In this document: piece by piece, positions 8,588-49,869 of the stretch | Numbering within the stretch: position 1 is the stretch's first letter | How the letters are laid out: each line of letters begins with the position of its first letter | Assembly (NCBI GenBank): GCA_021780535.1 | Contig: JAJXYN010000009.1 | Span: 303,923-367,922 of the forward strand | Reading direction: 5' to 3' | Length of the DNA: 64,000 nucleotides | Origin: a bacterium | Lineage (GTDB): Bacteria; Patescibacteriota; Patescibacteriia; JAGPKW01 | Program-made: the position numbers and the translations under genes | Notes under the pieces: generated by a model | The model's database searches: none | The model's input: the letters and a program-made list of their open reading frames with translations, nothing else | What the model was told of the DNA's origin: nothing

Positions 8588-8677
8588 GGAGAGGTGGCTG
8601 AGCGGTTGAAAGCACCACACTGCTAACGTGGCAGGGCCTAAAAACCCTCGCAGGTTCAAATCCTGTCCTCTCCGCCA
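8588..8677 (+). tRNA. tRNA-Ser (anticodon GCU)
   Basis: GGAGAGG acceptor stem pairing CCTCTCC, anticodon loop CUGCUAA, long variable arm, T-loop TTCAAAT, 3' GCCA encoded. Confidence 0.85.
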
Positions 8678-9062
8678 TACAGGGCTACCGAGATGCCTAG
8701 TTTTACTATGATGGCATTGATGAAACCCCATTAAATCACCAGAGTTTGGTGATTTTTTGTTTTTTTATTTCTCTAAGATTGGTCAATAAATTTTTGATAA
8801 ATTTCTCAATTTTCGAATATCTTGAAATGCAGACTAGAAATTAACTAAAAACTCCCATTAAAAAATAATTAAACTTGGTTCGAAACCTGTTTGCTCTGTT
8901 GGTAACTAGAGCTTCGCAAGGTTTTTGGTTATGTTAATATACTAATACCAACGCGATATTTGGTCTTATTTGGTAAATTAACAAAAATAAAATAGATACT
9001 TCTCTATAATCGAAAGGTATCTAAATTTATAAAATCTTAATTTTTAATAATAGAGATTAAGA
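8672..9062 (+). repeat. Flank repeat copy A: last 6 nt of tRNA-Ser plus ~385 bp of downstream sequence, repeated at 31021..31412 (and partially at 36283..36410)
   Basis: Direct comparison: ccgccatacagggctaccgagatgcctagttttactatgatggcatt...ttggttcgaaacct...taatagagattaag present in both places with ~90% identity. Confidence 0.8.
8733..8768 (+). terminator. Rho-independent terminator downstream of tRNA-Ser
   Basis: atcacca-gagtt-tggtgat hairpin followed by ttttttgttttttt; same element recurs in the two other flank copies. Confidence 0.6.
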
Positions 9063-9769
9063 ATATATTTAACTAAGAACTGGAGGTAATAAACTCCAGT
9101 TAAAATAAAGATAGAAGCTGTTACATATCTTAATATTTTTTCTACTTTAGATACTATATTTAAAGCTTTACTTAACTTATTAAAACTATAAGCTATTATA
9201 AAAGAAAATAATATTACAGGTAGACCGGTTCCTATCCCAAAGAAAGGAGCTAATAAAAATCCAAAATTAGTTTTAAGTATTAAAGGAATTAATATTCCAA
9301 AAAATAAAGCACCACTATAGGGACAAAAAGCTAAAGAAAATAAAATACCCATAAAAAATGAACCAATATAACCCTTAGTAGATAAATGATTTTTTAGTTG
9401 TTCTATCCTCTTATTTCTTATATTAATGTTTATTTTAATAACACCAAACATTAATAACCCTAATAGTATTAGAACTGGCCCTAAAACTTTATCGCCCCAT
9501 CCTTGAAATAGGCTGGATATTTTGAAAGATGATAAACCAAAATAAATTAGAAGAGCTATTAAAGTATAACTTAAAGATCTTCCTAAAGTATAAAATAAGC
9601 CACTTAAAATAGTTTTCTTTTGAGATTTTAAATCTTTTGAAATATATGCAACTGCAGTTATGTTTGTAGCAAGAGGACAAGGGCTAATTGATACTATAAC
9701 ACCCAAAAGAAAAGCTGTTATCAGTGGAATATTTGATGATTCTATTATTGTATTTATAAAATTTAACAT
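9044..9769 (-). CDS. CcdA/DsbD-family transmembrane thiol-disulfide electron transfer protein
   Basis: VSISPCPLATN first-Cys motif in TM1 as in CcdA (SPCVLP), multiple TM helices. Confidence 0.6.
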   Translation of the reverse strand: MLNFINTIIESSNIPLITAFLLGVIVSISPCPLATNITAVAYISKDLKSQKKTILSGLFYTLGRSLSYTLIALLIYFGLSSFKISSLFQGWGDKVLGPVLILLGLLMFGVIKININIRNKRIEQLKNHLSTKGYIGSFFMGILFSLAFCPYSGALFFGILIPLILKTNFGFLLAPFFGIGTGLPVILFSFIIAYSFNKLSKALNIVSKVEKILRYVTASIFILTGVYYLQFLVKYILNLYY

Positions 9770-9773
9770 ATTT

Positions 9774-10238
9774 CTATAATAAAGACCTTATTCTTGTTTC
9801 TAAATAATCCATAAACTTTTGCTTATCAGTAACAAGCATCCATAATTTACTCTCGTAACTAATATTATCTTTATTATCTTTAATCCCATTTATATATAAA
9901 GAAGATCCACTAGCTTGGAATTTTTCACCCAATGCTTTATTTTCTGGTAAATCTAAATTTATTTCTTTAAATATTATTTTTCCATTATTAAATTCAGTTA
10001 GAAATTTTGTTTCTATGGTTTCTTTTGCATACTTACCTAAATTAATACAAGAGATACATCTTTGTGTGTTATGAAATACAAAAACTTCTATTTTATCAGA
10101 TTGTATATTAGATATATGAACTTCTTGGTTTTTGGCTATATTATTTGAATTATTTCTATCTTTAGAGAAAGTTAATACTGAAATAAATATTGAAACTATA
10201 ATTAAACTAGCAGATAAAATTATTATCTTTTTATTCAT
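9774..10238 (-). CDS. Thioredoxin-like CxxC (CISC) membrane-anchored protein, likely CcdA partner
   Basis: N-terminal TM/signal, single RCISC motif; genomic context between permease and CcdA. Confidence 0.35.
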   Translation of the reverse strand: MNKKIIILSASLIIVSIFISVLTFSKDRNNSNNIAKNQEVHISNIQSDKIEVFVFHNTQRCISCINLGKYAKETIETKFLTEFNNGKIIFKEINLDLPENKALGEKFQASGSSLYINGIKDNKDNISYESKLWMLVTDKQKFMDYLETRIRSLL

Positions 10239-10246
10239 AATTGTTA

Positions 10247-11221
10247 TTATAAGATTATATTAAATAAATATCCTAAAATTATTATAAACAAACTAATTAA
10301 ACCAAAGAATATTAATAACAATTTCATCTTCATAACTTTCTTAAGAAGAATAGCTTCTGGTAACGATAAGCCAACTATAGCCATCATAAAAGCTAATGCT
10401 GTACCAATTGGAACTCCTTTTTGTATTAAAGCTTGAATTATAGGAAGAACCCCAGCTGCATTTGAATACATTGGTACACCTATTAGAACAGCAACGGGAA
10501 CGGCAAATGGATTATCTTTGCTTATATAATGCTCAAAAAATCCAGTAGGAACAAATCCATGTATTGCAGCTCCTATAGAAATACCTATTAAAATATATAA
10601 CAAAACCTTTTTTACAATAGATAGGGATTCTCTCAATATACTTGGTATATTTTTAAAAATAGTTCCTTTTTTTATTATTACTTGAGCTGCATTATTTTCT
10701 CTAATATTTTTTACAAAATCAGTAAGCTCATTTTCTAATTTTAATTTCCCAAGTACAAATCCACCAATAATTCCTAATAATATTGCAGATATTACATAAA
10801 TAGAGGTTATCCTTAATCCAAACATTCCAATGAACATTGCGACTGCGACTTCGTTTACTAGCGGAGATGTAATAAGGAATGAAAAAGTAACACCAAGAGG
10901 AATTCCGCCCTTAACAAACCCTATGAATAAAGGAATGGATGAGCAAGAACAAAACGGAGTTACTGCTCCAAATAGTGAAGCAATAATATATTCTAATCCA
11001 TATAACTTATTTTTAGATAAAAAATTCCTTACTTTTTCTACTGGAAAATAGAAATTAATAATACCCATTATAAAACTAATTATAAATAGAAGTATTATGA
11101 TTTTTATTGAATCATAAATAAAAAAATTTACAGAATTAGCTAGATTAGAATTCTTTATTAAATGAAATAGATTGTATGTTACTAAATCTGAAAAACTTTG
11201 TATTGGTTGAAATATATCCAT
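10247..11221 (-). CDS. ArsP-like permease (DUF318/YraQ family)
   Basis: VTPFCSCSSIP matches the conserved TPFCSCS motif of ArsP organoarsenical efflux permeases; 8+ TM helices. Confidence 0.7.
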   Translation of the reverse strand: MDIFQPIQSFSDLVTYNLFHLIKNSNLANSVNFFIYDSIKIIILLFIISFIMGIINFYFPVEKVRNFLSKNKLYGLEYIIASLFGAVTPFCSCSSIPLFIGFVKGGIPLGVTFSFLITSPLVNEVAVAMFIGMFGLRITSIYVISAILLGIIGGFVLGKLKLENELTDFVKNIRENNAAQVIIKKGTIFKNIPSILRESLSIVKKVLLYILIGISIGAAIHGFVPTGFFEHYISKDNPFAVPVAVLIGVPMYSNAAGVLPIIQALIQKGVPIGTALAFMMAIVGLSLPEAILLKKVMKMKLLLIFFGLISLFIIILGYLFNIIL

Positions 11222-11238
11222 AATATACTAATTATTTA

Positions 11239-11610
11239 TTAAGCAGCACCACCAGTGCCAGAGCATTTTCCTCCACAATCACATTGAGCAGTTTTATTAC
11301 AATCACAATCCTCACCACAATCAGATTTATCATCACAGCCACAACCCTTAAACTCAAAGTTATCTTTTACCGATTTTTCAACCATTTCTTTTAATTCTTC
11401 TTTTGATGGCAATACACCTACTAAAATTGGTTTATTATTTATGGCAAGCACTGGACTACTCATAACACCCATAGCTATTATTTCTGAAATATCTGTAACA
11501 TATTCAACATTTAACTCAAATCCTAATTCTTTTACCACTTCTTGTGTTAATTCATGTAATTTTTTACATTTTGCACAACCTGAACCTAAAACTTTTATTT
11601 TGATTTCCAT
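11239..11610 (-). CDS. Redox-active disulfide protein 2 (thioredoxin-fold, GCxKC) with Cys/Asp-rich C-terminal tail
   Basis: IKIKVLGSGCAKCKKL...VTDISEIIAMGVMSSPVLAINNK matches the small Trx-fold family found beside DUF318 permeases; C-terminal 40 aa carries nine Cys, eight of them in Cys-Asp/Asp-Cys pairs. Confidence 0.8.
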   Translation of the reverse strand: MEIKIKVLGSGCAKCKKLHELTQEVVKELGFELNVEYVTDISEIIAMGVMSSPVLAINNKPILVGVLPSKEELKEMVEKSVKDNFEFKGCGCDDKSDCGEDCDCNKTAQCDCGGKCSGTGGAA

Positions 11611-11617
11611 ATTTATT

Positions 11618-11929
11618 TTATTTAATACTTAAAAAACTATTTAATAATGATGAATACTTTTTAATAATATCTTTATTTAAAGAATAAAAAACTTTTAAAC
11701 CAACTTTATTTGATTTTAATAAATTAAAATATTTCATCACTCTTAAATGATGAGATATAAGGTTTTGGGGAATATCTAAAAACTCTTGTATTTCACATAC
11801 ACATCTTTCTTTGTTTTTAAGAAAGCATACTGTTTTTAATCTATTTTCTTCTGATATTATTTTTAGAAAATCTATCATTTCCGACATCTCTAAACTAATG
11901 TCTTTACAATTGAAACATTCTTTTTGCAT
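11618..11929 (-). CDS. arsR: ArsR/SmtB-family metalloregulator
   Basis: ERCVCEIQEFL (ELCVCD-type metal site) followed by HTH ...QNLISHHLRVMK. Confidence 0.85.
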   Translation of the reverse strand: MQKECFNCKDISLEMSEMIDFLKIISEENRLKTVCFLKNKERCVCEIQEFLDIPQNLISHHLRVMKYFNLLKSNKVGLKVFYSLNKDIIKKYSSLLNSFLSIK

Positions 11930-11943
11930 ATTATTAAGATAAG

Positions 11944-11965
11944 TATATCAATTTATATTGATATA
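11944..11965. promoter_or_regulatory. Putative ArsR operator (8-bp arms inverted repeat tatatcaa-N6-ttgatata) immediately upstream of arsR
   Basis: Perfect inverted repeat; identical element upstream of the second arsR paralog at 39038..39059. Confidence 0.55.
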
Positions 11966-12002
11966 GTATAACTTATTTTATAAATGGTCAAATGTTTATA
12001 AA

Positions 12003-13304
12003 TTAATTTTTAATTAAATTAATTTTCTTGTTTTTCATTATAAATTTATTCTTAAACATACCCATAAACTGTCTTTTTTCTTCTATAGAACCGTGGTTTA
12101 GTATAAACTTGGCATAATCTACTAAGTCTACCTTTCTATCGTTCATACCTCGTTCTACGTTGTTTATTTTAAGTACTTGTTTTTGTAGATGAGCAAATCT
12201 TTCCACTTCTATTCTTAACTTTTCTTTAATGTCTTCTTCTGGAATATCAATATCTTTTAGAAGTTTTATTATTTGCTCTATAAATTGTTCTTCTCTAATA
12301 TATCTATTACTACACTTAAGATCTTTTGTTCTATTACATCCATAGTAAATATATTTATTTACTCCACCATTTTTTAATTTCTTGTGTTTTTCCACCGCAC
12401 ATAAATTAGAGCTGCAATGACCACAAATCATAGAACCTAGAAAAGCAAACTCTTTTTCTCCATATTTGTAACTAGCTTTTCCTAATTTTATTTTTCTTTG
12501 AACGATTTCAAATAATTCTTTTGTAATTATTGGTTGATGATTTCCTTGGCACCAATTACCACTTCCTGCTGGATATTCAAACCATCCATAGTAAAATGGT
12601 CTACCAAGTAATATGTAGATATTTGCTAAAGACAGATTCTTACCACTTTTTGTTGTGAAATTTTGTTTTACAAACCAACTATGCAAAGCCCTACCAGAAT
12701 AGTTTTCATAAGCTACTTTCTCAAACGCTTGTTTGATTATTGGAGCTCTTTCAGGATCTGGAATTACTACTCCTGTTTTATTTTTTCTTTCATCATTAAG
12801 ATAGCCGATAGGAGCAACTCCTATCCAAAATCCTTTTGATGTTTTAATTTTCAAACCTCTTTTTACATTGATACTTTTATTATCATTCTCAAGTTTAGCC
12901 TGACCACCAAGTACTGCTAATAGAAATTTATCATTTGGTGTATTTTTAAAGTTTTGATTATACGTTCTTATTTCTTTAAGATAACTACCGTCTATTAAAT
13001 CTATAATACTTCCTAAATCTCCAGCATTTCTTGAAAGTCTATCAGTATTCCATGTTAGAATACCTTCGAATTTACCTTGTCTTAATTCTTTTATCATTTC
13101 ATTAAATATCGGCCTCTGACTTGAAGCTTTTGCAGAATGAGCCTCTTTTTTTATGCAAACCACATTAAGATTATCTCTTTCTGCTATTAAACTCATTTCA
13201 TTTTCTTGAGCTTCTATTGAAAGAGCCTGTTTTTCATCTTCTTCACTAGATTTTCTAGCATAAAGACAGTATCTAATTTCTGACGAAAACCCTTTGTTTT
13301 CCAT
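12003..13304 (-). CDS. Large serine recombinase (resolvase N-domain + recombinase domain + zinc ribbon)
   Basis: YARKSS (catalytic Ser region), RLSRN, recombinase-domain body and C-terminal CGHCSS...YYGC zinc ribbon. Confidence 0.85.
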   Translation of the reverse strand: MENKGFSSEIRYCLYARKSSEEDEKQALSIEAQENEMSLIAERDNLNVVCIKKEAHSAKASSQRPIFNEMIKELRQGKFEGILTWNTDRLSRNAGDLGSIIDLIDGSYLKEIRTYNQNFKNTPNDKFLLAVLGGQAKLENDNKSINVKRGLKIKTSKGFWIGVAPIGYLNDERKNKTGVVIPDPERAPIIKQAFEKVAYENYSGRALHSWFVKQNFTTKSGKNLSLANIYILLGRPFYYGWFEYPAGSGNWCQGNHQPIITKELFEIVQRKIKLGKASYKYGEKEFAFLGSMICGHCSSNLCAVEKHKKLKNGGVNKYIYYGCNRTKDLKCSNRYIREEQFIEQIIKLLKDIDIPEEDIKEKLRIEVERFAHLQKQVLKINNVERGMNDRKVDLVDYAKFILNHGSIEEKRQFMGMFKNKFIMKNKKINLIKN

Positions 13305-13398
13305 ATATTTATCATTAATTTGTTATCTATACACATTAATGACGCAACCCATCTAGTGCGTCTAGGATGAGCTGTTGGTAAGTAGTTGGTAAATAAAA
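13305..13398. repeat. Conserved right-end sequence of recombinase modules (near-identical to 34199..34291), containing candidate recombination site gttatctatacacattaatgacgcaa with internal inverted repeat gacgca-N10-tgcgtc
   Basis: Only 3 mismatches to the module-B copy across the ~94-bp block, three over ~25 bp near its 3' end, then identity ends abruptly; a variant of the core (tttgttatctatatacattaatgacgcaa) at 30770..30800. Confidence 0.6.
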
Positions 13399-13424
13399 AA
13401 AGATACAATTAATGTACCTTCTTT

Positions 13425-20146: not shown

Positions 20147-20249
20147 ACCTTACTAATTTACAAGAAGTAGACAAACAGTAGATAAATATGCTTTACTTTT
20201 GCCTTTTTTCAAGTTAATATAATAATACAATTTAATTTGCCTAAACTAA

Positions 20250-20400
20250 TACCAACAGGTGTTGGCATGGCATAAAATCCATAACGAACAAGCTAGGTCT
20301 TCTGACTAGTATTTTTCGTTATGGTCTACATTCGAAAGGATGTAGGGCTAAACCTCGAAAGAGGCATGCCAAAATACTTTGTCGGGAGGCCTTTTTGTTT
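20250..20400 (+). ncRNA. Candidate structured RNA (unclassified): closing helix ggcatg/catgcc enclosing a 10-bp helix with nested hairpin, a ctacat/atgtag hairpin with tcGAAAgg loop and a cctc-GAAA-gagg hairpin
   Basis: Multi-helix arrangement with two GAAA tetraloops, local GC ~42% in a 25% background, no ORF, ~40 nt upstream of a small gene. Confidence 0.35.
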
Positions 20401-30103: not shown

Positions 30104-30763
30104 ATGGGCAGAAAAATATTTGTTAGCTATAAATATGCTGATTCATCTGTTCCGGATTTAAATCTTGGTGAACAGACAACTGTTAGGCATTATGTTGATA
30201 TAATACAAGGACTTTTATCAGAAGAAGATCATATAAACAAGGGTGAAAACGATGGAGAAGATTTAAGTTCTTTTAAAGAAAGTACGATAGAATCAAAATT
30301 AAGAGATAAAATATTTGATAGCACTATAACAATAGTTTTAATATCAAAAAACATGAAAGATCCTAGCAAGAATGAATCAGACCAGTGGATACCTTGGGAG
30401 GTTTCATATTCATTAAAAGAGATTACAAGAGGAGATAAAACAAGTGGCACAAATGCCATGTTAGCAGTTGTTTTACCAGATGAAAAAAATGATTATTCCT
30501 ATTTCGTAAATCACTTTGCTTGTACTACAAGTTGGAATACAGATATACTTTTTAAAATTCTTGGAAATAATATGTTTAATAGGAATAATAAAAATTTAAT
30601 CTCATGCCAAACTTGTGGAGGAACGCATCATATAGACGATGATCACTCATATATTCACCCAGTAAAATGGTGCGATTTCATAAAAGATATAAATAAATAT
30701 ATAGATATAGCTTTAAAAATGAATAATAATCTCAATGAATATAAAATTCAAAAGGAATTATAA
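30104..30763 (+). CDS. TIR-like domain protein (ThsB/DUF1863-like) with Cys/His-rich C-terminus
   Basis: KIFVSYKYADS N-terminal strand motif and SDQWIPWEVSYSL (W-x-x-E) motif as in ThsB (RVFFSFHYQD ... RRWVRYEIMKS); recalled alignment, not computed. Confidence 0.6.
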   Translation: MGRKIFVSYKYADSSVPDLNLGEQTTVRHYVDIIQGLLSEEDHINKGENDGEDLSSFKESTIESKLRDKIFDSTITIVLISKNMKDPSKNESDQWIPWEVSYSLKEITRGDKTSGTNAMLAVVLPDEKNDYSYFVNHFACTTSWNTDILFKILGNNMFNRNNKNLISCQTCGGTHHIDDDHSYIHPVKWCDFIKDINKYIDIALKMNNNLNEYKIQKEL

Positions 30764-31412: not shown

Positions 31413-31541
31413 AAATATTTAATAAATTAACTAATAATATATGATTTAAAATCTTCATCATTTCTTCATTTTGATTTGATATGATTTGTAGTTATTGGTT
31501 TATGGAGTTAGAATTATTTAATAAATATATAATTATAATTT

Positions 31542-32882
31542 ATGTCAGATAACATAAAACAAGAAGAAGCTAATCAACAAAATGACAATAAAATATTAAG
31601 TAAAGAAAAGGAAAAAGAACTAGATTTTTTCATTACAACTCCATTAAGATCAGCTAACAATTTAATGAACAAATTATATAGCGATGATAGTTTTTATGAA
31701 ACAACTACTTATGCATTTGTTTCACCAGGAGATGCTAAAAAACTTTTTTTCTATGGAGCGTGTAAGGAGGTATTAAAAACCTGTATATATTTAATGAACA
31801 ATAAAGAATTTCTAGGAGGATCTATAAATGATAAAGATTTTGGTATTGTAGAAAAAGTAATAATGGGGTCAACAATAGATACTCAAACATATCATAGAAG
31901 AAAGATGGTGGAGCTATTAAGTATTGTTATATTATTTGATAGAAACACTAAACATGATGAAGAATACAGAATATATAAATCAGCTGAGAATTTAGATTTA
32001 TTCCTAAGCAGACAATCTGATTTTAAAGAACTTTTTAATGGAAAAATAATATTAAATACTCAACATTCAATAGATGATTTTATAGGAAGGATTGATAGTG
32101 ATAAAAAAGCCATCGAACTTACAGATGTTTGGTTTTTAAATGAAAAAAAACTAAAAAATCAAACTCCAGGTATATTTAAGAGCAAAAAAGGAATATATGA
32201 TTCAGCAATGCTTGTTGCTACTCCTGATGAAAAAATAGCTCTTGGTATATCCTATGGCCGTGGCTATTCTCGTGCTAGTCAATCAATTCATCCAATGTTA
32301 GGAAGTAGTAATTATGGTAAAGAAGATAATGATATCGAACATGTACTTATGAATTCAATTTATATGTCAATTATATGTATGCAAATAATGCATATAGCCT
32401 ATAAGTTAACTGGTTTTGAGGATGAATTTGGATTATCAAAAATCATGGGAACTAATTTTGAAAAATCAGAAGCATCTAAATCAATTGGAGTTTTACAGAA
32501 AGATTTTGATAAAGGAGATCTTATACTTACTTCATGGACAGATATTGCAGAAATAATTGATGAAGAAACAAGTAAATACGGATATAAGGCTTATAAAATA
32601 AAATATCTTTTAACACCACCGCTACCAGAATATCCAGAAGATTGGATAGAAGCACAAAACATATTAGCGCGTATATTATCAAAAAAAACTGTAAGAAAAA
32701 TGTTTAACAATATGGTTATAGAAAAAATGTCTAAAGATGTTATTGAATTATGGCCCGATGTATTAAAACAACCAGATGAAGAACTTATGAAATCAGCAAA
32801 ACATGTGTTTATTGATTTACATAAAGCCAATGTCTTGATACCAATGTTACTAAAAAGTGGTTTCTTAAAGAAAACTAGTTAA
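31542..32882 (+). CDS. Hypothetical 446-aa protein (sole cargo of module B)
   Basis: Intact ORF, host-like composition, no recognisable motif. Confidence 0.45.
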   Translation: MSDNIKQEEANQQNDNKILSKEKEKELDFFITTPLRSANNLMNKLYSDDSFYETTTYAFVSPGDAKKLFFYGACKEVLKTCIYLMNNKEFLGGSINDKDFGIVEKVIMGSTIDTQTYHRRKMVELLSIVILFDRNTKHDEEYRIYKSAENLDLFLSRQSDFKELFNGKIILNTQHSIDDFIGRIDSDKKAIELTDVWFLNEKKLKNQTPGIFKSKKGIYDSAMLVATPDEKIALGISYGRGYSRASQSIHPMLGSSNYGKEDNDIEHVLMNSIYMSIICMQIMHIAYKLTGFEDEFGLSKIMGTNFEKSEASKSIGVLQKDFDKGDLILTSWTDIAEIIDEETSKYGYKAYKIKYLLTPPLPEYPEDWIEAQNILARILSKKTVRKMFNNMVIEKMSKDVIELWPDVLKQPDEELMKSAKHVFIDLHKANVLIPMLLKSGFLKKTS

Positions 32883-32896
32883 TATTAGTAAGAATA

Positions 32897-34198
32897 TTAA
32901 TTTTTTATTAAACTAATCTTCTTATTTTTCATTACAAACTTATTCTTAAACATACCCATAAACTGTCTTTTTTCTTCTATAGAACCGTGATTTAATATAA
33001 ACTTGGCATAATCTACCAAGTCTACTTTTCTATCGTTCATACCTCTTTCTACATTGTTTATTTTTAGTACTTGTTTTTGTAGATGAGCAAATCTTTCTAC
33101 TTCTATTCTTAACTTTTCTTTAATGTCTTCTTCGGGAATATCAATATCTTTTAGAAGCTTTACTATTTGCTCTATAAATTGTTCTTCTCTAATATATCTA
33201 TTACTACATTTAAGATCTTTTGTTCTATTACATCCATAGTAAATATATTTATTTACTCCACCATTTTTTAATTTCTTATGTTTTTCTACTGCACATAAAT
33301 TAGAACTACAATGGCCACAAATCATAGACCCTAAGAATGCAAATTCTTTTTCTCCATATCTATAACTAGCTTTTCCTAATTTTATTTTTCTTTGAACTAT
33401 TTCAAAGAGTTCTTTTGTAATTATTGGTTGATGATTTCCTTGGCACCAATTACCACTTCCTGCTGGATATTCAAACCATCCATAATAAAAAGGCCTTCCA
33501 AGTAGTATATAGATATTTGCTAAGGATAAATTCTTACCACTTTTTGTCGTGAAATTTTGCTTTACAAACCAACTATGTAAAGCTCTACCAGAATAGTTTT
33601 CATAAGCCACCTTCTCAAATGCTTGTTTAATTATTGGGGCTCTTTCAGTATCTGGAATTACTACTCCTGTTTTATTTTTTCTTTCATCATTAAGATATCC
33701 AATAGGCGCAACTCCTATCCAAAATCCTTTTGATGTTTTAATTTTAAGACCTCTTTTTACATTGATACTTTTATTATCATTCTCAAGTTTAGCCTGACCG
33801 CCAAGTACAGCTAATAGAAATTTATCATTCGGAGTATTTTTAAAGTTTTGATTATATGTTCTTATTTCTTTCAGGTAACTACTATCTATCAGGTCTATTA
33901 TACTTCCTAAATCCCCGGCATTTCTTGAAAGTCTATCAGTATTCCATGTTAGAATACCTTCAAATTTTCCTTGTCTTAATTCTTTTATCATTTCATTAAA
34001 TACTGGTCTTTGACTTGAAGCTTTTGCAGAATGGGCTTCTTTTTTTATACAAACTACATTTAAACTATCTCTTTCTGCTATTAAACTCATTTCATTCTCT
34101 TGAGCTTCTATCGAAAGAGCTTGTTTTTCGTCTTCTTCACTAGATTTTCTAGCATAAAGACAATATCTAATTTCTGATGAAAACCCTTTGTTTTCCAT
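32897..34198 (-). CDS. Large serine recombinase (second copy)
   Basis: 8 aa differences from 12003..13304 over 433 aa. Confidence 0.85.
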   Translation of the reverse strand: MENKGFSSEIRYCLYARKSSEEDEKQALSIEAQENEMSLIAERDSLNVVCIKKEAHSAKASSQRPVFNEMIKELRQGKFEGILTWNTDRLSRNAGDLGSIIDLIDSSYLKEIRTYNQNFKNTPNDKFLLAVLGGQAKLENDNKSINVKRGLKIKTSKGFWIGVAPIGYLNDERKNKTGVVIPDTERAPIIKQAFEKVAYENYSGRALHSWFVKQNFTTKSGKNLSLANIYILLGRPFYYGWFEYPAGSGNWCQGNHQPIITKELFEIVQRKIKLGKASYRYGEKEFAFLGSMICGHCSSNLCAVEKHKKLKNGGVNKYIYYGCNRTKDLKCSNRYIREEQFIEQIVKLLKDIDIPEEDIKEKLRIEVERFAHLQKQVLKINNVERGMNDRKVDLVDYAKFILNHGSIEEKRQFMGMFKNKFVMKNKKISLIKN

Positions 34199-37905: not shown

Positions 37906-38703
37906 TTAAATGACTGAACTAATTAATTTGAAAAATACAATAATTAAGATAATTCCAATTATTATTTGAAATATTTTTCTCCATTCGTTTTTAAAAAATT
38001 TTTCAGTTATTTTAAATACAATATGTATCCCAAACCATAAAGAAATTCCTAACAAAAAATCGTTTATAGTCATAGATATATTTTTGACTACATATAAGCT
38101 ATGGATAATTATTGCAAATAAAGAAGAATATAGTGCCGTGATAGTATTACCAATATACACTTGACTCATGTTCATGTGTCCAATTTTTATAGCAAATGGT
38201 AATTTTAATGGCTTTAAACTTGTACCTGAAAGTCCAGTAAAAAAGCCGCTAACAACTGGCCCAAATAAACCACATATTTTTTGATATGTTAATTTTGCTG
38301 AATCATGATTCAATTCTTCTGGTTTAAAATGAATAAAAATTAAACGTAATCCATACAATAAAGCTATAATACTAATTGTTATTAATAAAAATTTAGAAGA
38401 AATATTAAAGAACACAAACGATCCTAAAGATGCTCCAATTAAAGCTAGTAATGGAACTACTGTTAAAAATTTATTTTTATTTTTAGGTGGTATATTTTTT
38501 ATTTTTTCCCTATTTTGCCATAATACATATATCGCACCAAAGAATATAATCCAAAGAAAAATATTAATAGCTTGGAATACAGGAAAACTCATTAATGATA
38601 TTAGTAAAATAATTGCAAAAAATCTATCAAATTGAATTTTTAATCCCGCTGTAACAAAACCAACAATAATAATAATTATAAAAAATGAAACTAATGGAGT
38701 CAT
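37906..38703 (-). CDS. TauE/SafE-like membrane permease
   Basis: 8 TM helices, glycine-rich repeat LFGPVVSGFFTGLSGTS; downstream of ArsR paralog. Confidence 0.5.
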   Translation of the reverse strand: MTPLVSFFIIIIIVGFVTAGLKIQFDRFFAIILLISLMSFPVFQAINIFLWIIFFGAIYVLWQNREKIKNIPPKNKNKFLTVVPLLALIGASLGSFVFFNISSKFLLITISIIALLYGLRLIFIHFKPEELNHDSAKLTYQKICGLFGPVVSGFFTGLSGTSLKPLKLPFAIKIGHMNMSQVYIGNTITALYSSLFAIIIHSLYVVKNISMTINDFLLGISLWFGIHIVFKITEKFFKNEWRKIFQIIIGIILIIVFFKLISSVI

Positions 38704-38708
38704 ATTTT

Positions 38709-39026
38709 TTATTTTAATTTAATATTTAAAAAATTATTTAATAATGATGAATACTTTTTAATAATATTTTTATTTAAAGAATAAAAAACTTTTAAACCAA
38801 TTTTATTTGATTTTAATAAATTAAAATCTTTCATTACTTTTAAATGGTGTGATACTAAGTTTTGTGGAATATTTAAAAATTCTTTTATTTCACATACACA
38901 TTTTTCATCATCTATGAGAAAACATATTATTTTTAATCTACTTTCCTCTGATATTATTTTTAGAAAATCTATCATCTCTGACATTTCTAAACTTGTGTTT
39001 TTACAATTGAAATATTCTTTTTTCAT
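38709..39026 (-). CDS. arsR: ArsR/SmtB-family metalloregulator (paralog, ~80% identical to 11618..11929)
   Basis: EKCVCEIKEFL and HTH QNLVSHHLKVMK. Confidence 0.85.
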   Translation of the reverse strand: MKKEYFNCKNTSLEMSEMIDFLKIISEESRLKIICFLIDDEKCVCEIKEFLNIPQNLVSHHLKVMKDFNLLKSNKIGLKVFYSLNKNIIKKYSSLLNNFLNIKLK

Positions 39027-46148: not shown

Positions 46149-47438
46149 TTATTTTTTTTGACTTATATATTTTTTCGCTGAAGTTGCAGATACCGCGCCC
46201 ATAGCTTCTGCTACTACTATTTGTTTTAAATCTGAAAATCCGGTCGTAATATCTCCTGCCGCATAAACACCTTCTAGATTTGTTTTACAATTTTGATCTA
46301 TTTTAATAAATCCAGAATCATTTTTTTCTATTCCTAATTTTTCAAGTAAAGCATCATTTGGGATCGTTCCTATTTCTATAAATAAACCATCTATTTTTAA
46401 TTTATTGCTTCCATTATATTCTTTGTCTAATATTATTTCTTCTACGATATTGCTTCCTTGTATTTCCAAAACATTAGATGAAGATATTAGATGGATATTG
46501 TGTCTCTTTTTTACTTCTTCTTTTAAAGCTTCATCTTTTGCTGAAAATTCTTCTTTTCTATAAATTAAATAAACATCAGTGGAAACATCACTCAAATGCA
46601 AAGCTCCTGTTAACGCTGCATCACCAGCACCAAGAACTGCTACTACTTTATCTTGATAAAACATCCCATCACATATAGTGCAATATGATATCCCTTTTCC
46701 TGAAAATTCTGATTCGCCTTTAATCCCAGCTTTTCTTTTTTCTGTGCCCAAAGCTATTATTAAACTTTTACCTTTATAATGCCTATTGCCGTCTGTTATT
46801 ATTTTAAAAATACCATTATCATCTTTTTCTATTTGTTTAACCACATCCATAACGTGCTCACATTGATCATATTTTTTGAAATGCTGTAATAATTTTTGAG
46901 ATAATTCCGACCCTTCTATATTTGGCAAGGCTGGATAATTATCTACTAAATGCGTCTTTGCAACCATTCCTCCTATTTCTCCACCTATAACAACATTGCT
47001 CATATTATATCTACTTGCATATATAGATGCTGTTGCACCTGCCGGACCAGATCCTATTATAATTGTATCAAATATTTTTTCATTACTAACTATGTCTTCT
47101 TTAATTTCTACACCCATTAAAGCTATATTTTTCAATATATCCTCTTTATTTATATAGCCTAATAATCTTTGACCAATTTCAACTCCATTTTTATAGAATA
47201 ATAAAGTTGGTGAACTCATTACATTTAGACTCATTGCTAGATCTTTATTTTCTTGTCTAAATATTTTTGTAAATAATATTTTACTTCCATAACGCTTTGA
47301 TAATTCTATATATTTTTCAGCCAATGCCTCACAAGGTGGGCATTCTGTTGAATAAAAATCAATTATTACGTTTTCATTATTTTTAATAATATCGTAAAAT
47401 TCATCTTTATTTATATGTATTATTTCTTCTTTATTCAT
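46149..47438 (-). CDS. Thioredoxin–thioredoxin reductase fusion protein
   Basis: N-terminal Trx (STECPPCE), then TrxB FAD site IIIGSGPAGATAS and redox-active CTICDG, NADPH site AVLGAGDAA. Confidence 0.85.
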   Translation of the reverse strand: MNKEEIIHINKDEFYDIIKNNENVIIDFYSTECPPCEALAEKYIELSKRYGSKILFTKIFRQENKDLAMSLNVMSSPTLLFYKNGVEIGQRLLGYINKEDILKNIALMGVEIKEDIVSNEKIFDTIIIGSGPAGATASIYASRYNMSNVVIGGEIGGMVAKTHLVDNYPALPNIEGSELSQKLLQHFKKYDQCEHVMDVVKQIEKDDNGIFKIITDGNRHYKGKSLIIALGTEKRKAGIKGESEFSGKGISYCTICDGMFYQDKVVAVLGAGDAALTGALHLSDVSTDVYLIYRKEEFSAKDEALKEEVKKRHNIHLISSSNVLEIQGSNIVEEIILDKEYNGSNKLKIDGLFIEIGTIPNDALLEKLGIEKNDSGFIKIDQNCKTNLEGVYAAGDITTGFSDLKQIVVAEAMGAVSATSAKKYISQKK

Positions 47439-48540
47439 TTGTTTTATTAATACTTAATTTATTTGGTAACCAAAAAGATATTGGTATTTGAACTAGATAT
47501 GACAAGACTATTACTATTATTATTTGAGAATAAACCTGATTTTGATAAATTAATGATGTTGAGAAACCTAAGGCTAGCGTTATATATCTTAAATAATTTC
47601 CCCATATTAAAGCTTTTGTTTCTGCAGTTTTATTCTTTTTAAATATAAATAAATTTATTGATAAGATTGTTGCGTAAAATATAATTACTGGAATTATTGA
47701 TTTTAATAACAAATCTGGCTTTTCAAAAATTATTATATTTTGTTTCATCCCCATTAAAAAGAATAGTGTAAAAAACATACCTATATTACTTATTCCCGAA
47801 AAAATTATTTTTGATTTTTCAAATTTATTTTCTTGTAATATTTTCTTTAAAATTTTTTGAGTTGTAAAAGCTAGACCAAGTGGTATTAAAACTATTATTA
47901 ATATTGGGATAGCTATTTGCACAGCACGTATTGAATGACTATTACCAAAAGAGCAAGATAATGTATTGTTTGTAGCCTTAGATATTAAACAACCACCTGT
48001 ATGATTTGTTGCTTGTATCCCTTGATAAAAATTATCAAATTTTGGTTGTCCGATCTGAGTATTTATGTTTCCAACAAATGTATTTATAAAAAATGATAGG
48101 AATATTGGAACTAACACAACGGCAGTTAATAAATTTGCGACTATTATTCCAACAGTTACTACTAAATCTGACTTTGTTTTTTGTGCCCAAGAAACAACCA
48201 TTCCACCGCCTGGTAATATAGATAATAAGAATAATCCTAAAAATAATACTGGATAATCTCTTAAGAATAGATACCCAACTAAAAATCCTATTAATGGTAT
48301 CATTACGAAATTTAATAATATTGATATTATTATTATATTTTTATGTTTGTAAATATCTTTTAATTTACTAAAATCTAAAGACACGAGAGATGGATATATC
48401 ATTGTTAAAGCTGCAAAAATACACACTAAAACACTAAACTCAAAACCACCTAAAAATCTAGCAAATAATATCCCTGAAAAAATACTTAGCAAAATTAAAA
48501 AAAATAAATTTTTTTGTATAAATTTAAAAATCTTTTCCAT
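47431..48540 (-). CDS. BASS/ACR3-like (SBF family) transporter with Cys-rich central insert
   Basis: MIYPSLVSLDFSKLKD and LFLLSILPGGGMVVSW resemble ACR3/BASS motifs (no APCTAM Cys); 8-nt overlap with trx-trxB. Confidence 0.45.
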   Translation of the reverse strand: MEKIFKFIQKNLFFLILLSIFSGILFARFLGGFEFSVLVCIFAALTMIYPSLVSLDFSKLKDIYKHKNIIIISILLNFVMIPLIGFLVGYLFLRDYPVLFLGLFLLSILPGGGMVVSWAQKTKSDLVVTVGIIVANLLTAVVLVPIFLSFFINTFVGNINTQIGQPKFDNFYQGIQATNHTGGCLISKATNNTLSCSFGNSHSIRAVQIAIPILIIVLIPLGLAFTTQKILKKILQENKFEKSKIIFSGISNIGMFFTLFFLMGMKQNIIIFEKPDLLLKSIIPVIIFYATILSINLFIFKKNKTAETKALIWGNYLRYITLALGFSTSLIYQNQVYSQIIIVIVLSYLVQIPISFWLPNKLSINKTNE

Positions 48541-48648: not shown

Positions 48649-49869
48649 TTATTTTTTTACTATGTCTTTTATAAGAAAACCTATTAATGAAGATGCTATC
48701 GCTGCTAATATTAATATATATTTAAAATCGTAAGGAATAAATATTATAAATATAGTTGATAAAACTAAAATAAAACTCCTACCTAAAAAATTAGACATTA
48801 TTCTCATAACAACATACTCATCTATTAGATCTCCTTTGTTTCTTGCTCCCTCATAAAAACGAGAGTCTCTTGGTATTCTTAATATTGGCTCTACAATGTT
48901 TTGATATGTTGAAGCTACAAATAATTGTAAATTTGTTAGTGATAAAATTTTCCATATCCAACCTAATCCATAAAGAATTCCTCCAAGTTTTGCAATTTTT
49001 GATTTGCTTTTTATATCTGTTAACTTACCAACTAAAGAATTTACTATCAATGAAGCTAATAAAACCAATGATACTAATATACCAATAGAATTTATATCGT
49101 TTTTCATAAGAATGAATATAATTATTGGCCATATTGTTATTTTTATACCCATTTCTGCTCCTTCAGAAAATCCTATAAAAAAATTTCTTATATATCTTTT
49201 TGAAAATATGTTTTTGAATGTTTCTATAAAACCAAATGAATATTGTTGCTTTGTATCATTCATTTTTAATAATGGGAATATAGATATAATATAAATCAAA
49301 ACTGCTAATATAAAAAGAATATTAAATCCTATTTTATCTATAATCAATGATGCTATAAATGGTAATGCAACTCCTACTATTGATAATATATTTCTAATTC
49401 TACCAATTTGTGAACCTCTTTTGCTTTGATCTGTAAACAATGATATGTCCACATGATACCCTATCCAATAAAAAGATCTTGCTACTACCATTGTAATTAA
49501 ATACAAAACAATTGCTATGGTTGTATTAAAATCAAAAATTAAAAATGTGCCATAATTAAGCATAAAAAATATACTACCTATTATTATGGAATTTTTTATA
49601 CCTATTTTACCTAATGCTTTTGCCCCAAAAATAAGTCCAAATATAGATAATATGCTATCTATAGAAAAAAGTATAAAAATATATAATAATGATAGATCTA
49701 ATTTTTGATAAATAAATATTACAGAAAACATAACTAACATTGAATCTGCTATAGCTTGTATAGCTGTGGACAAGGACAATGATAGTAAATCTTTACTGAA
49801 TAAATTTATTTTATTTATATTTTTAACTTTTTCCATTTGTGTAGTTTTATTAGTTAATAAGTATATCAT
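48649..49869 (-). CDS. MFS-type transporter
   Basis: 12 predicted TM helices, 406 aa. Confidence 0.5.
   Translation of the reverse strand: MIYLLTNKTTQMEKVKNINKINLFSKDLLSLSLSTAIQAIADSMLVMFSVIFIYQKLDLSLLYIFILFSIDSILSIFGLIFGAKALGKIGIKNSIIIGSIFFMLNYGTFLIFDFNTTIAIVLYLITMVVARSFYWIGYHVDISLFTDQSKRGSQIGRIRNILSIVGVALPFIASLIIDKIGFNILFILAVLIYIISIFPLLKMNDTKQQYSFGFIETFKNIFSKRYIRNFFIGFSEGAEMGIKITIWPIIIFILMKNDINSIGILVSLVLLASLIVNSLVGKLTDIKSKSKIAKLGGILYGLGWIWKILSLTNLQLFVASTYQNIVEPILRIPRDSRFYEGARNKGDLIDEYVVMRIMSNFLGRSFILVLSTIFIIFIPYDFKYILILAAIASSLIGFLIKDIVKK

What the first reader, a model, noticed from the sequence alone, without database searches (positions are those of the whole stretch)
9044..11929. Cargo of module A: ArsR / Trx-fold protein with poly-Cys tail / ArsP-like permease / Trx-like / CcdA, a five-gene thiol-redox resistance cassette
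The ArsP-type TPFCSCS permease and the redox-active disulfide protein 2 are a known pair.
- Here the Trx-fold protein carries an unusual 40-aa C-terminal tail with 9 Cys, 8 of them in Cys-Asp/Asp-Cys pairs (GCGCDDKSDCGEDCDCNKTAQCDCGGKCSG).
- The cassette also includes a CcdA + Trx-like membrane electron relay.
- The combination suggests reduction or sequestration of a thiophilic (metalloid or soft metal) substrate on the extracytoplasmic side.
- It is mobile cargo.
Basis: partly seen in the sequence, partly recalled or inferred. Interest (0 to 1): 0.5.

Follow-up and report, generated by a model that had tools for sequence, protein, structure and literature searches.

The report
Conserved arsR-arsE-arsP-arsF-arsG arsenical resistance operon
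The five genes are a real, tightly packed operon of an already named and widespread kind (ArsR, ArsE, ArsP, ArsF, ArsG: thiol-based resistance to arsenic compounds), here sitting inside a small recombinase-borne module; its only unusual feature is an extra-long version of a cysteine-rich tail that most relatives of ArsE carry in short form.

Summary
Observation confirmed. Five minus-strand genes, 4-17 nt apart, fill 9044-11929. They are ArsR/SmtB; a Trx-like protein of the MTH895/ArsE family; an ArsP_1 permease with TPFCSCS; a membrane-anchored Trx-fold protein above the NCBIfam ArsF cutoff; and a DsbD/CcdA-like protein above the ArsG cutoff.

The combination is not special. Among 80 loci fetched with ArsF, the order R-E-P-F-G occurs in 50 and R-E-F-G-P in 15, nearly all Patescibacteria MAGs. 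In Prevotella and Flavobacterium the same genes sit beside ArsC, ACR3-type or methyltransferase genes.

The trio was noted in ars operons in 2010 and named ArsEFG in 2019.

The tail is not a frameshift. It has 8 Cys, not 9. 46 of 74 operon-linked ArsE proteins carry a Cys tail, usually CxCGGxC. The window has the long form: an in-frame ~20-codon expansion, modelled as disordered.

Most likely function: an ArsR-controlled resistance unit combining ArsP efflux with an ArsE-ArsG-ArsF dithiol relay across the membrane. The substrate is inferred from homologues' gene neighbourhoods and family names only.

Mobility is partly supported. A 98%-identical recombinase with the same ends and other cargo lies 21 kb away, but relatives carry the operon without it.

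A new member of a known kind; modest interest.

The parts
11618..11929 (-). arsR: ArsR/SmtB metalloregulator, 103 aa. It has a C43-V-C45 motif in the helix before the recognition helix, plus conserved C5 and C35.
   Evidence: Pfam HTH_5 39 bits. NCBIfam NF033788 73.6 bits, cutoff 55. Conservation among 69 operon-linked orthologues: C43 68/69, C45 68/69, C35 64/69, C5 63/69.
11944..11965 (.). Putative ArsR operator: a perfect 9-nt inverted repeat TATATCAAT-N4-ATTGATATA. It overlaps the -10 of a promoter-like site (TTGACC-17-TACTAT, 11991..11963, minus strand).
   Evidence: the repeat finder I5. Promoter scan. The 22-mer occurs only twice in the window, upstream of each arsR copy (second at 39038-39059); 0.13 expected by chance.
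11239..11610 (-). arsE: cytoplasmic MTH895/ArsE-family thioredoxin-like protein, 123 aa. Active site C12-A-K-C15. Trx domain residues 1-84.
   Evidence: Pfam Thioredoxin_3 79.3 bits. TIGR00412 88 bits, cutoff 62. PDB 1ILO (MTH895) E=7.9e-12. AF2 model confident for residues 1-84.
11263..11343 (-). Cys-rich tail of ArsE (residues 90-116, 8 Cys), ending in the family's conserved CxCGGxC motif (C110-D-C112-G-G-K-C116). Seven further residues, SGTGGAA, follow.
   Evidence: Translation. Tails aligned in A2. 46/74 orthologues have at least 3 Cys in the last 32 residues, and 34 have an exact CxCGGxC. Identical or near-identical tail in independent assemblies. pLDDT below 50 for residues 86-123.
10247..11221 (-). 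arsP: ArsP_1-family permease, 324 aa. The TPFCSCS motif (residues 88-94) is encoded at 10940-10960.
   Evidence: PF03773 228.5 bits. C91 and C93 are invariant in 71/71 operon-linked orthologues. SaoE and SO_0444 equivalog cutoffs are not met. 63% identical to the permease of the Prevotella ars operon.
9774..10238 (-). arsF: membrane-anchored extracytoplasmic thioredoxin-fold protein, 154 aa. TM helix 3-22, linker 25-41, Trx fold 49-153. C61-I-S-C64 is encoded at 10047-10058.
   Evidence: NCBIfam NF040494 100.7 bits, cutoff 60. C61 and C64 invariant in 30/30. AF2 pLDDT 82.9. All top Foldseek PDB hits are thioredoxins or PDI domains. Some orthologues have lipoboxes (LSGC, LTAC, LSAC).
9044..9769 (-). 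arsG: DsbD/CcdA-type membrane protein, 241 aa. It keeps the two hallmark cysteines, C31 (SISPCP) and C149 (AFCPYS).
   Evidence: PF13386 66.3 bits and PF02683 48.4 bits. NF040495 ArsG equivalog 276.7 bits, cutoff 200. C31 and C149 present in 80/80. Full-length alignment to T. thermophilus CcdA 5VKV with both Cys aligned, E=0.008.
12003..13304 (-). Context: large serine recombinase, 433 aa, directly upstream of arsR. The recombinase-side end of the module lies at about 13388-13400.
   Evidence: Resolvase, Recombinase and Zn_ribbon_recom domains. 98% aa-identical copy at 34198..32897. DNA repeat 12002-13400 ~ 32896-34294. In L002 similarity ends at window 13388 and different genes follow.
8672..9076 (.). 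Context: conserved ~400-bp distal end of the module. It starts at the CCGCCA 3' end of tRNA-Ser(GCT) (8588-8677, + strand) and overlaps the last 11 codons of arsG.
   Evidence: 91% identical copy at 31021-31425. tRNA. Junction sequences. The segment travels with the operon in L090.

Best explanation
This is an ArsR-repressed operon of the known arsR-arsE-arsP-arsF-arsG type. It gives thiol-based resistance to trivalent arsenicals, most plausibly organoarsenicals such as methylarsenite or aromatic arsenicals.

Shown here:
- All five family memberships.
- Tight operon packing.
- A putative operator.
- Invariant cysteines at every station.
- The topology-relevant features of ArsF.

Inferred mechanism:
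1. A thiophilic inducer binds the CVC site of ArsR and releases it from the inverted repeat at 11944-11965.
2. ArsP exports the trivalent arsenical using its membrane-embedded Cys-x-Cys pair.
3. ArsE, ArsG and ArsF form a three-station dithiol relay across the membrane. ArsE is cytoplasmic, with a CxxC and a Cys tail. ArsG is a DsbD/CcdA scaffold with one Cys in each half. ArsF is a CxxC thioredoxin fold tethered outside. The layout matches thioredoxin -> CcdA -> ResA/CcmG.
4. I consider it most likely that the relay passes reducing equivalents. It would keep exofacial thiols (including those attacked by the exported arsenical) reduced, or carry out the substrate modification reported for ArsEF.
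5. It remains possible that the arsenical itself is handed from dithiol to dithiol.

The ArsE tail is a disordered, metallothionein-like thiolate cluster. Its conserved core CxCGGxC resembles the three-Cys As(III) site of ArsR. I infer that it captures or buffers the thiophile next to the ArsE active site or ArsP.

The operon sits between tRNA-Ser and a large serine recombinase, in a module whose ends recur with other cargo.
For: - Family hits above curated cutoffs for ArsE, ArsF and ArsG, and for ArsR and ArsP_1.
- Gaps of 4-17 nt between the genes.
- The operator inverted repeat is found only upstream of the two arsR copies.
- Same five genes in 65 of 80 loci, and F always directly before G.
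- Invariant Cys: ArsF C61/C64 in 30/30, ArsG C31/C149 in 80/80, ArsP C91/C93 in 71/71, ArsR CVC in 68/69.
- ArsF is a TM anchor plus a Trx fold with CxxC at the helix N-terminus, and some orthologues have lipoboxes.
- ArsG aligns over its full length to CcdA 5VKV with both Cys matched.
- Arsenic link by context: the Prevotella plasmid carries wHTH-ArsF-ArsG-Trx-permease-ArsC-ACR3, and the permease is 63% identical. Flavobacterium carries HTH_5-DUF6428-methyltransferase-...-Trx_3-ArsP-...-DsbD_2-SBF. Flavihumibacter stibioxidans carries Trx_3-ArsP near an SBF gene.
[quoted passage not shown] ArsP exports MAs(III) and trivalent roxarsone (PMC6205960). ArsE/F/G are listed as organoarsenical resistance and efflux determinants (PMC9144182).
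- Tail: conserved motif in 46/74 orthologues. It is commoner when arsE directly precedes arsP (41/57) than when it precedes arsF (5/17); Fisher p=0.003, not corrected for phylogeny.
Against: - No substrate was tested, and nothing in the sequence names arsenic.
- None of the 80 mostly Patescibacteria loci has an ArsC or ACR3 within 6 kb. The window's only ACR3-like gene fails the ACR3 cutoff (79.7 vs 282.8 bits).
- The ArsR Cys pattern (N-terminal Cys plus CVC) also fits Cd/Pb/Zn sensors of the CadC type (recalled knowledge).
- The permease's best equivalog hits, though below cutoff, are a Cu/Zn exporter and SaoE.
- The family names state a different role for E/F (nitro reduction) and G (efflux permease). 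I could not read the primary paper.
- The final acceptor of a reductive relay is unknown.
- The tail-order association may be purely phylogenetic.
Confidence: 0.62

Rival explanations
1. The published ArsEFG model applies literally. ArsE and ArsF together reduce the nitro group of trivalent nitroaromatic arsenicals (roxarsone, nitarsone) inside the cell. ArsG is simply an efflux permease for the amino products. ArsP separately exports MAs(III)/Rox(III). No transmembrane redox relay is involved.
For: NCBIfam names and cutoffs are met: ArsF 'nitrophenyl compound nitroreductase subunit', ArsG 'aromatic aminobenzylarsenical efflux permease'. PGAP gives the same names in Prevotella. The ArsEFG paper is cited for roxarsone/nitarsone detoxification, and ArsG is listed among efflux transporters.
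Against: - ArsF has an N-terminal TM anchor, and some orthologues have lipoprotein signals. It is therefore predicted to lie outside the cytoplasm, apart from ArsE.
- ArsG keeps both DsbD catalytic Cys-Pro motifs in 80/80 orthologues and aligns to CcdA.
- No flavin or metal cofactor domain is present for a six-electron nitro reduction.
- The operon is conserved across many environmental uncultured lineages (MAGs), whereas nitroaromatic arsenicals are synthetic 20th-century compounds (inference).
- The assignment rests on one study of a distant homologue, which I could not read.
Confidence: 0.2
2. The cassette handles another thiophile, not arsenic. Candidates are a soft metal (Cd, Zn, Pb, Cu, Hg) or a reactive sulfur/selenium species. 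The Cys tail would act as a metallothionein-like buffer and the PF03773 permease as the exporter.
For: - Sub-threshold best permease matches are the SO_0444 Cu/Zn efflux and SaoE families. ArsR gives sub-threshold matches to TsoR, BigR and CmtR-type sensors.
- There are no arsC or acr3 genes near any of the 80 loci.
- The paralogous arsR with the identical operator controls a TauE/SafE-type exporter.
- Rhodanese genes accompany the pair in some genomes.
- DUF2703 and Cys/Asp-rich tails are generic soft-metal ligands.
Against: ArsF and ArsG exceed curated cutoffs of arsenic-named families. In cultured Bacteroidota the same genes sit in clusters with ArsC, ACR3-type or methyltransferase genes. 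7 of 8 earlier instances are with arsC. All equivalog cutoffs for the alternative families are missed by a wide margin (119 vs 325 bits; 103.5 vs 300 bits).
Confidence: 0.13
3. The tail is functionless low-complexity sequence or an assembly/frameshift artefact, and the cassette is ordinary chromosomal DNA rather than mobile cargo.
For: The tail is modelled as disordered. Close relatives at 86-91% identity have only the short tail. Relatives carry the operon with no recombinase.
Against: - The expansion is in frame (60 nt relative to L089) and restores the conserved CxCGGKC at its end.
- The same tail is found in at least four independent assemblies. Variants differ only by conservative substitutions.
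- Long tails with the same Cys spacing occur in Peribacteraceae, L040 and L051.
- The recombinase-arsR-arsE junction recurs at 99.6% identity in a different flank. A second module has the same ends and different cargo.
Confidence: 0.05

Closest known systems
ArsEFG of Shewanella putrefaciens 200 (Chen, Zhang & Rosen 2019, Environ Sci Technol 53:6182; NCBIfam TIGR00412 / NF040494 / NF040495)
   Same: All three proteins pass the curated family cutoffs and are co-operonic with arsR. There is a Trx-like ArsE, a CxxC ArsF and a DsbD-type ArsG.
   Different: - ArsP is embedded between arsE and arsF.
- No arsC or acr3 is nearby.
- ArsE carries a 38-residue Cys-rich tail.
- The host is an uncultured low-GC (26%) bacterium.
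- The operon lies in a serine-recombinase module.
- Activity on nitroaromatic arsenicals is untested, and the primary paper was not readable here.
ArsP, the methylarsenite/roxarsone(III) efflux permease of Campylobacter jejuni (Chen et al. 2015; reviewed in PMC6205960)
   Same: PF03773 family, about 300-aa short type, with a membrane Cys-x-Cys pair in a TPFCSCS motif (the motif's role is recalled from the 2015 paper).
   Different: Phylogenetic placement relative to C. jejuni ArsP was not determined. Two distinct arsP clusters are reported in the literature. The nearest named relatives are Bacteroidota 'permeases' at 63-69% identity.
Thioredoxin -> CcdA -> ResA/CcmG extracytoplasmic reducing pathways (CcdA structure 5VKV)
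   Same: Same three-station architecture and the same conserved cysteines. The CcdA-like gene is adjacent to its tethered Trx-fold partner in every locus.
   Different: A dedicated cytoplasmic donor (ArsE) is encoded in the operon. The system is under ArsR control and linked to a permease. No cytochrome c maturation context is present. ArsF matches no Pfam Trx family.
CcdA / thioredoxin / redox-active disulfide protein 2 trio in ars operons (Castillo & Saier 2010, PMC2963123)
   Same: Same three gene families, described as ars-operon determinants and as a possible transmembrane electron path.
   Different: That work found them with arsC in 7 of 8 cases and suggested support of ArsC. Here, and in the 80 mostly Patescibacteria loci, no arsC is present.
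Cysteine-based metalloid and metal binding modules: the R773 ArsR CVCDLC site, the ArsD metallochaperone, metallothioneins, and the MerP-MerT-NmerA Hg(II) hand-off
   Same: Clustered Cys in CxC / CxxxC spacing on a flexible segment next to a transporter. Dithiol stations lie on both sides of the membrane.
   Different: This is resemblance only (recalled). There is no sequence homology, and binding is untested. The tail is fused to a Trx-like protein, which none of these are.

Membership tests
ArsEFG system | ArsE: MTH895/ArsE-family small thioredoxin-like protein with CxxC | tested here: met
   TIGR00412 88 bits, cutoff 62. 1ILO E=7.9e-12. G-x-G-C-x-x-C invariant.
ArsEFG system | ArsF-family protein | tested here: met
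   NF040494 100.7 bits, cutoff 60. This is a subfamily-level model, not an equivalog.
ArsEFG system | ArsG-family DsbD-like membrane protein | tested here: met
   NF040495 equivalog 276.7 bits, cutoff 200.
ArsEFG system | The genes are co-operonic and under an ArsR-type regulator | tested here: met
   Gaps of 4-17 nt. arsR is first in the operon, with an operator-like repeat. The arrangement recurs in 65/80 loci.
ArsEFG system | Confers resistance to, and transforms or exports, trivalent roxarsone/nitarsone | not testable with these tools
   Needs MIC, speciation (HPLC-ICP-MS) and transport assays.
ArsP (C. jejuni-type MAs(III) efflux permease) | PF03773 permease of the ~300-aa type | tested here: met
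   228.5 bits over profile positions 2-293 of 294. 324 aa. Short and long types are described in PMC2963123.
ArsP (C. jejuni-type MAs(III) efflux permease) | Conserved vicinal Cys pair (TPFCSCS) | tested here: met
   Residues 88-94. C91 and C93 in 71/71 orthologues. The functional meaning of the motif is recalled, not verified in a held paper (one search found none).
ArsP (C. jejuni-type MAs(III) efflux permease) | Falls in the clade of the characterised C. jejuni ArsP on a phylogeny | not tested
   No reference sequence was reachable. Proxy only: the closest named homologues sit in ars-type clusters. The SaoE and SO_0444 equivalogs are not met.
CcdA/DsbD transmembrane thiol-disulfide transporters | DsbD_2/DsbD_TM domain with one conserved Cys (Cys-Pro context) in each half | tested here: met
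   PF13386 66.3 bits and PF02683 48.4 bits. C31 and C149 in 80/80. Both Cys align to CcdA 5VKV.
CcdA/DsbD transmembrane thiol-disulfide transporters | Extracytoplasmic thioredoxin-fold CxxC partner | tested here: met
   ArsF: TM anchor or lipobox, Trx fold, invariant CxxC, always adjacent to arsG. The outward orientation is predicted, not measured.
CcdA/DsbD transmembrane thiol-disulfide transporters | Actual transfer of reducing equivalents across the membrane | not testable with these tools
   Needs in vivo thiol trapping of ArsF with and without ArsG and ArsE.
ArsR/SmtB metalloregulators, As(III)-sensing type | Winged-helix HTH_5 domain | tested here: met
   PF01022 39 bits. NF033788 73.6 bits, cutoff 55.
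ArsR/SmtB metalloregulators, As(III)-sensing type | Three-Cys CVCxxC site as in R773 ArsR | tested here: inconclusive
   C43-V-C45 is conserved (68/69), but the third position is Gln. Conserved C35 and C5 could complete either an As(III) or a CadC-like site (comparison recalled).
Large-serine-recombinase mobile element carrying the operon | Recombinase with Resolvase + Recombinase + Zn-ribbon domains adjacent to the cargo, and recurring element ends | tested here: met
   The same ends surround different cargo at 31021-34294.
Large-serine-recombinase mobile element carrying the operon | Same element in different genomic sites, or an empty site | tested here: inconclusive
   L002 shows a different flank on the recombinase side. 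It is a 3.4-kb contig. No empty site or excised circle was seen. Relatives L089 and L090 have the operon plus the left end without the recombinase.

The most novel reading that the evidence does not exclude
ArsE-ArsG-ArsF is not an electron relay or a nitroreductase. It is a ligand-exchange export line, a 'reverse Mer' pathway. A trivalent arsenical is captured by the metallothionein-like CxCGGxC tail of ArsE and passed to the ArsE CxxC. It is then carried across the membrane bound between the two cysteines of the DsbD-fold ArsG in place of a disulfide, and released to the exofacial CxxC of ArsF. The reported nitro reduction would then be a side reaction of these dithiols. The widespread Cys tail would be a previously undescribed arsenic metallochaperone module.
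Probability: 0.15. Interest if true: 0.65.

Novelty: new member of a known kind. Interest (0 to 1): 0.27.

Why it matters
As it stands, this is an ordinary instance of a named operon that standard annotation pipelines would label.

Two points reach a little further:
- The five-gene unit is conserved in dozens of Patescibacteria MAGs from many named lineages, without arsC or acr3. The anatomy of ArsF (outside) and ArsG (CcdA-like, both Cys kept) fits poorly with the names 'nitroreductase subunit' and 'efflux permease'. The family annotation may therefore describe a side activity.
- About 60% of operon-linked ArsE proteins carry a C-terminal CxCGGxC cluster that I could not find described. The window holds its largest version. 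It is a cheap, testable candidate for a metalloid-binding chaperone tail.

Neither point depends on this window in particular.

Tried and rejected
- **Primary papers.** I tried to read the ArsEFG and ArsP papers by PubMed id, PMC id and DOI. None is held. Text searches for ArsEFG, ArsG and TPFCSCS returned only citing papers or nothing.
- **ArsP clade test.** It could not be done. tblastn against plasmids and the large protein search returned only proteins named 'permease' or YraQ-family. No C. jejuni reference was obtained.
- **Tandem-repeat origin of the tail.** TRF found no array. The expansion is in frame but is not a detectable tandem repeat.
- **Frameshift artefact.** Rejected.
- **Arsenic partners.** I looked for ArsC and ACR3 near the 80 loci and in the window. 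None was found, except a distant SBF protein that fails the ACR3 cutoff.
- **Source organism.** Cluster look-up returned no names. The Patescibacteria affiliation is only inferred from the nearest named homologues of ArsR, ArsE, ArsF and ArsG.
- **Tail detection.** A first attempt to define tails by a motif anchor failed. It was replaced by counting Cys in the last 32 residues.

Full report
**1. What is in the sequence**

The interval 9044-11929 holds five minus-strand ORFs separated by 7, 17, 8 and 4 nt. The GC content is about 25%, like the rest of the window.

Profile searches identify the five proteins as follows.
- An ArsR/SmtB regulator: HTH_5, and NF033788 at 73.6 bits against a cutoff of 55.
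- A small thioredoxin-like protein of the MTH895/ArsE family: Thioredoxin_3 at 79 bits, TIGR00412 at 88 bits against 62. Its closest solved structure is MTH895, 1ILO, E=8e-12.
- A PF03773 (ArsP_1) permease at 228.5 bits. It carries TPFCSCS at residues 88-94.
- A 154-aa protein with no Pfam hit. It scores 100.7 bits against the NCBIfam ArsF model (cutoff 60).
- A DsbD_2/DsbD_TM protein. It scores 276.7 bits against the ArsG equivalog (cutoff 200).

Two small corrections apply. The tail has 8 cysteines, not 9. Six of them, not eight, adjoin an aspartate.

**2. Anatomy of the parts**

*ArsF.* The model has a mean pLDDT of 82.9.
- It shows an N-terminal transmembrane helix (3-22), a disordered linker (25-41) and a thioredoxin fold (49-153).
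- C61-x-x-C64 sits at the N-terminus of the first long helix.
- All top Foldseek PDB matches are thioredoxins or PDI domains.
- In 30 homologues both cysteines and the flanking FH.T.RC..C motif are invariant. Several homologues replace the anchor with a lipoprotein signal (LSGC, LTAC, LSAC).
- The domain is therefore predicted to lie outside the cytoplasm.

*ArsG.* It keeps one cysteine in each half, in Cys-Pro contexts (SISPCP and AFCPYS), in 80 of 80 orthologues. It aligns end to end with Thermus CcdA (5VKV), with both cysteines matched, at a weak E of 0.008.

*ArsP.* It keeps C91 and C93 in 71 of 71 orthologues.

*ArsR.* It keeps C43-V-C45 in 68 of 69 orthologues, plus C35 and C5.

*Operator.* A perfect 9-nt inverted repeat (TATATCAAT-N4-ATTGATATA, 11944-11965) overlaps the -10 of a promoter-like site upstream of arsR. 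The 22-mer occurs only twice in 64 kb, against 0.13 expected. The second copy lies upstream of a paralogous arsR (39026..38709) that precedes a TauE/SafE-type exporter.

**3. The combination is a standard operon**

An alignment of ArsF homologues retrieved 80 loci from one-genome-per-species contigs.

Searching their ORFs with the window's proteins gave these gene orders:

| Order | Loci |
|---|---|
| R-E-P-F-G | 50 |
| R-E-F-G-P | 15 |
| Contig-truncated or otherwise partial subsets | 15 |

- arsF directly precedes arsG wherever both were called.
- Almost all records are Patescibacteria-type MAGs.
- None of these loci has an ArsC or ACR3 within 6 kb.

Outside that group the same genes lie in recognisable arsenic clusters.
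- A Prevotella nigrescens replicon has wHTH-ArsF-ArsG-thioredoxin family-permease-ArsC-ACR3. PGAP itself names ArsF and ArsG there, and the permease is 63% identical to the window's.
- Flavobacterium sp. N2270 has HTH_5-DUF6428-methyltransferase-x-Trx_3-ArsP-DinB-x-DsbD_2-SBF.
- Flavihumibacter stibioxidans and Rhodoflexus show related sets.
- The bare permease/Trx pair is widespread on plasmids, sometimes next to arsC and ACR3.

**4. What was already known**

[quoted passage not shown] There were 8 instances, 7 of them with arsC. They discussed transmembrane electron flow (PMC2963123).
- Chen, Zhang & Rosen (2019) named the genes ArsEFG and linked them to roxarsone and nitarsone detoxification. 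A later paper lists ArsG among organoarsenical efflux transporters and ArsE/ArsF among organoarsenical resistance determinants (PMC9144182).
- ArsP of C. jejuni exports MAs(III) and trivalent roxarsone but not inorganic arsenite. Two distinct arsP clusters have been noted (PMC6205960).
- I could not obtain the primary ArsEFG or ArsP papers. What I say about their details beyond these citations and the NCBIfam names is recalled.

**5. The cysteine-rich tail**

The tail is not a frameshift artefact.
- The identical 123-aa protein is encoded on several independent assemblies.
- Cluster mates differ by conservative substitutions within the tail (D->E, A->T, G->S).
- Relative to a close relative (L089, 88% nt identity) the window carries a 60-nt in-frame insertion. 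After it, the conserved CxCGGKC motif resumes.

The tail is common in the family.
- Among 74 operon-linked ArsE orthologues, 46 have at least three Cys in the last 32 residues. Of these, 34 have an exact CxCGGxC.
- A long class of about 28 residues recurs in Peribacteraceae proteins, L040 and L051. Its spacing (CC-x2-K-x2-C-x3-C ... CxCGxC) is alignable to the window's.
- Relatives at 86-91% identity have only FK(G/S)CxCGG(K/N)C.
- The window's tail is thus a recent expansion of a family trait. With 8 Cys it exceeds all 74 orthologues, whose maximum is 7.

Further properties:
- AlphaFold models residues 86-123 as disordered (pLDDT below 50), whereas residues 1-84 are modelled with mostly confident pLDDT (block means 82-89).
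- The tail is commoner when arsE directly precedes arsP (41/57) than when it precedes arsF (5/17). Fisher p=0.003, uncorrected for shared ancestry.
- In the loci examined this kind of C-terminus is almost confined to ArsE.

**6. Mechanism**

The shown facts fit an ArsR-gated operon with two arms.

*Arm one* is ArsP, an exporter whose membrane Cys-x-Cys pair is invariant.

*Arm two* is a three-station dithiol line: cytoplasmic ArsE, membrane ArsG and exofacial ArsF. Its architecture is that of thioredoxin -> CcdA -> ResA/CcmG.
- I consider transfer of reducing equivalents the most likely chemistry, because every catalytic residue of that pathway is retained.
- The acceptor is unknown.
- The published names (nitroreductase subunit, efflux permease) are hard to square with an exofacial ArsF and a CcdA-like ArsG. 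They rest on experiment, however, and I keep that model as a rival.
- A reconciling, more novel reading is that the arsenical itself is passed from dithiol to dithiol and crosses the membrane bound to ArsG's cysteine pair.

The tail is best read as a flexible thiolate cluster that captures the thiophile. Its CxCGGxC core resembles the CVCxxC As(III) site of R773 ArsR (recalled).

The identity of the substrate is the weakest step. The arsenic link is by family names and by context in Bacteroidota. The CPR-type loci lack arsC and acr3. The ArsR cysteine pattern is also compatible with a CadC-like Cd/Pb/Zn site. The permease's sub-threshold best matches are Cu/Zn and SaoE exporters.

**7. Mobility**

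The operon lies between tRNA-Ser(GCT) (8588-8677) and a large serine recombinase (13304..12003).

Evidence for a mobile module:
- A 98% identical recombinase lies at 34198..32897.
- Both copies share the recombinase-side DNA (12002-13400 ~ 32896-34294) and a ~400-bp distal end (8672-9076 ~ 31021-31425). They enclose different cargo.
- In another assembly (GCA_021833805.1, L002) the recombinase-arsR-arsE segment is 99.6% identical. Beyond window position 13388 the DNA is unrelated and encodes a D12 methyltransferase.

Evidence that limits the claim:
- Close relatives carry the operon and the distal end at 87-88% identity without any recombinase (L089, L090).
- One relative has a truncated operon (L088).

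'Mobile cargo' is therefore plausible but not demonstrated.

**8. Mosaic history**

The window's ArsR, ArsE, ArsF and ArsG are closest to Patescibacteria-type operons (45-68% identity). They are 24-37% identical to the Prevotella proteins.

ArsP behaves differently. It is 63-69% identical to Bacteroidota permeases, but only about 50% (median) to ArsP of the Patescibacteria-type operons.

**9. Verdict**

- The system is a new member of a known, named and widely distributed kind.
- The points of residual interest are general to the family rather than to this window. One is the mismatch between protein anatomy and the functional names of ArsF and ArsG. The other is the apparently undescribed CxCGGxC tail of ArsE, of which this is the longest example seen.

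Noticed in passing
window 8672-13400 and 31021-34294: Two copies of a small serine-recombinase module. They share a ~1.4-kb recombinase end (93% nt identity) and a ~400-bp distal end (91%) but carry different cargo. Module B carries a 446-aa ORF (31542..32882) with no Pfam or NCBIfam hit. Both distal ends begin at CCGCCA, which in module A is the 3' end of tRNA-Ser. The distal-end sequence is multi-copy in a related contig (L090).
   Followed up: partly
window 37906-39059: A paralogous arsR (39026..38709, 86.5% nt identity including the promoter) precedes a TauE/SafE-family exporter (38703..37906). It has the identical 22-bp operator at 39038-39059, which suggests cross-regulation with the ars cassette.
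   Followed up: partly
window 46149-49869: Minus-strand cluster of three genes. The first is a thioredoxin-thioredoxin reductase fusion (47438..46149). The second overlaps it and is an SBF-family transporter distantly like ACR3 (48540..47431; ACR3 model 79.7 bits, cutoff 282.8). The third is an MFS transporter (49869..48649). The fusion is a possible source of reducing power for ArsE.
   Followed up: partly
window 20238-20354: Rfam LOOT RNA (RF03000) match at 67.4 bits, above the gathering score of 46.4, on the + strand.
   Followed up: no
window 30104-30763: ORF with a weak Thoeris ThsB TIR-like domain hit (PF08937, 23.6 bits), just left of module B.
   Followed up: no
L014 3861-4556, L040 824-1531, L071 4035-4664: In three operons ArsE carries an N-terminal fusion of a Cys-rich DUF2703 domain (PF10865, 98.7 bits). 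This is another hint that ArsE works with a thiophilic ligand.
   Followed up: partly
L080 5442-5837: A YlbF/YmcA-family protein (PF06133) is inserted between arsP and arsF. It ends in CGCDDDCECGEDCCG, an Asp/Cys tail much like the window's ArsE tail.
   Followed up: no
window 10247-11221 versus loci L005-L084 and P0255-P0368: The window's ArsP is more similar to Bacteroidota permeases (63-69%) than to ArsP of most Patescibacteria-type operons (median about 50%). The other four proteins show the opposite pattern. The permease gene may have been exchanged.
   Followed up: partly
L006 4862-5974, L007, L064, L066: A few operons have a longer (~370 aa) PF03773 permease at the arsP position. It is only weakly similar to the window's ArsP (73-83 bits by phmmer), so the permease slot tolerates different subfamilies.
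   Followed up: partly
L088 8326-8724: In a 549-kb contig of a close relative the operon is cut after the first 132 codons of arsP and followed by unrelated genes. This is a natural deletion variant lacking arsF and arsG.
   Followed up: no
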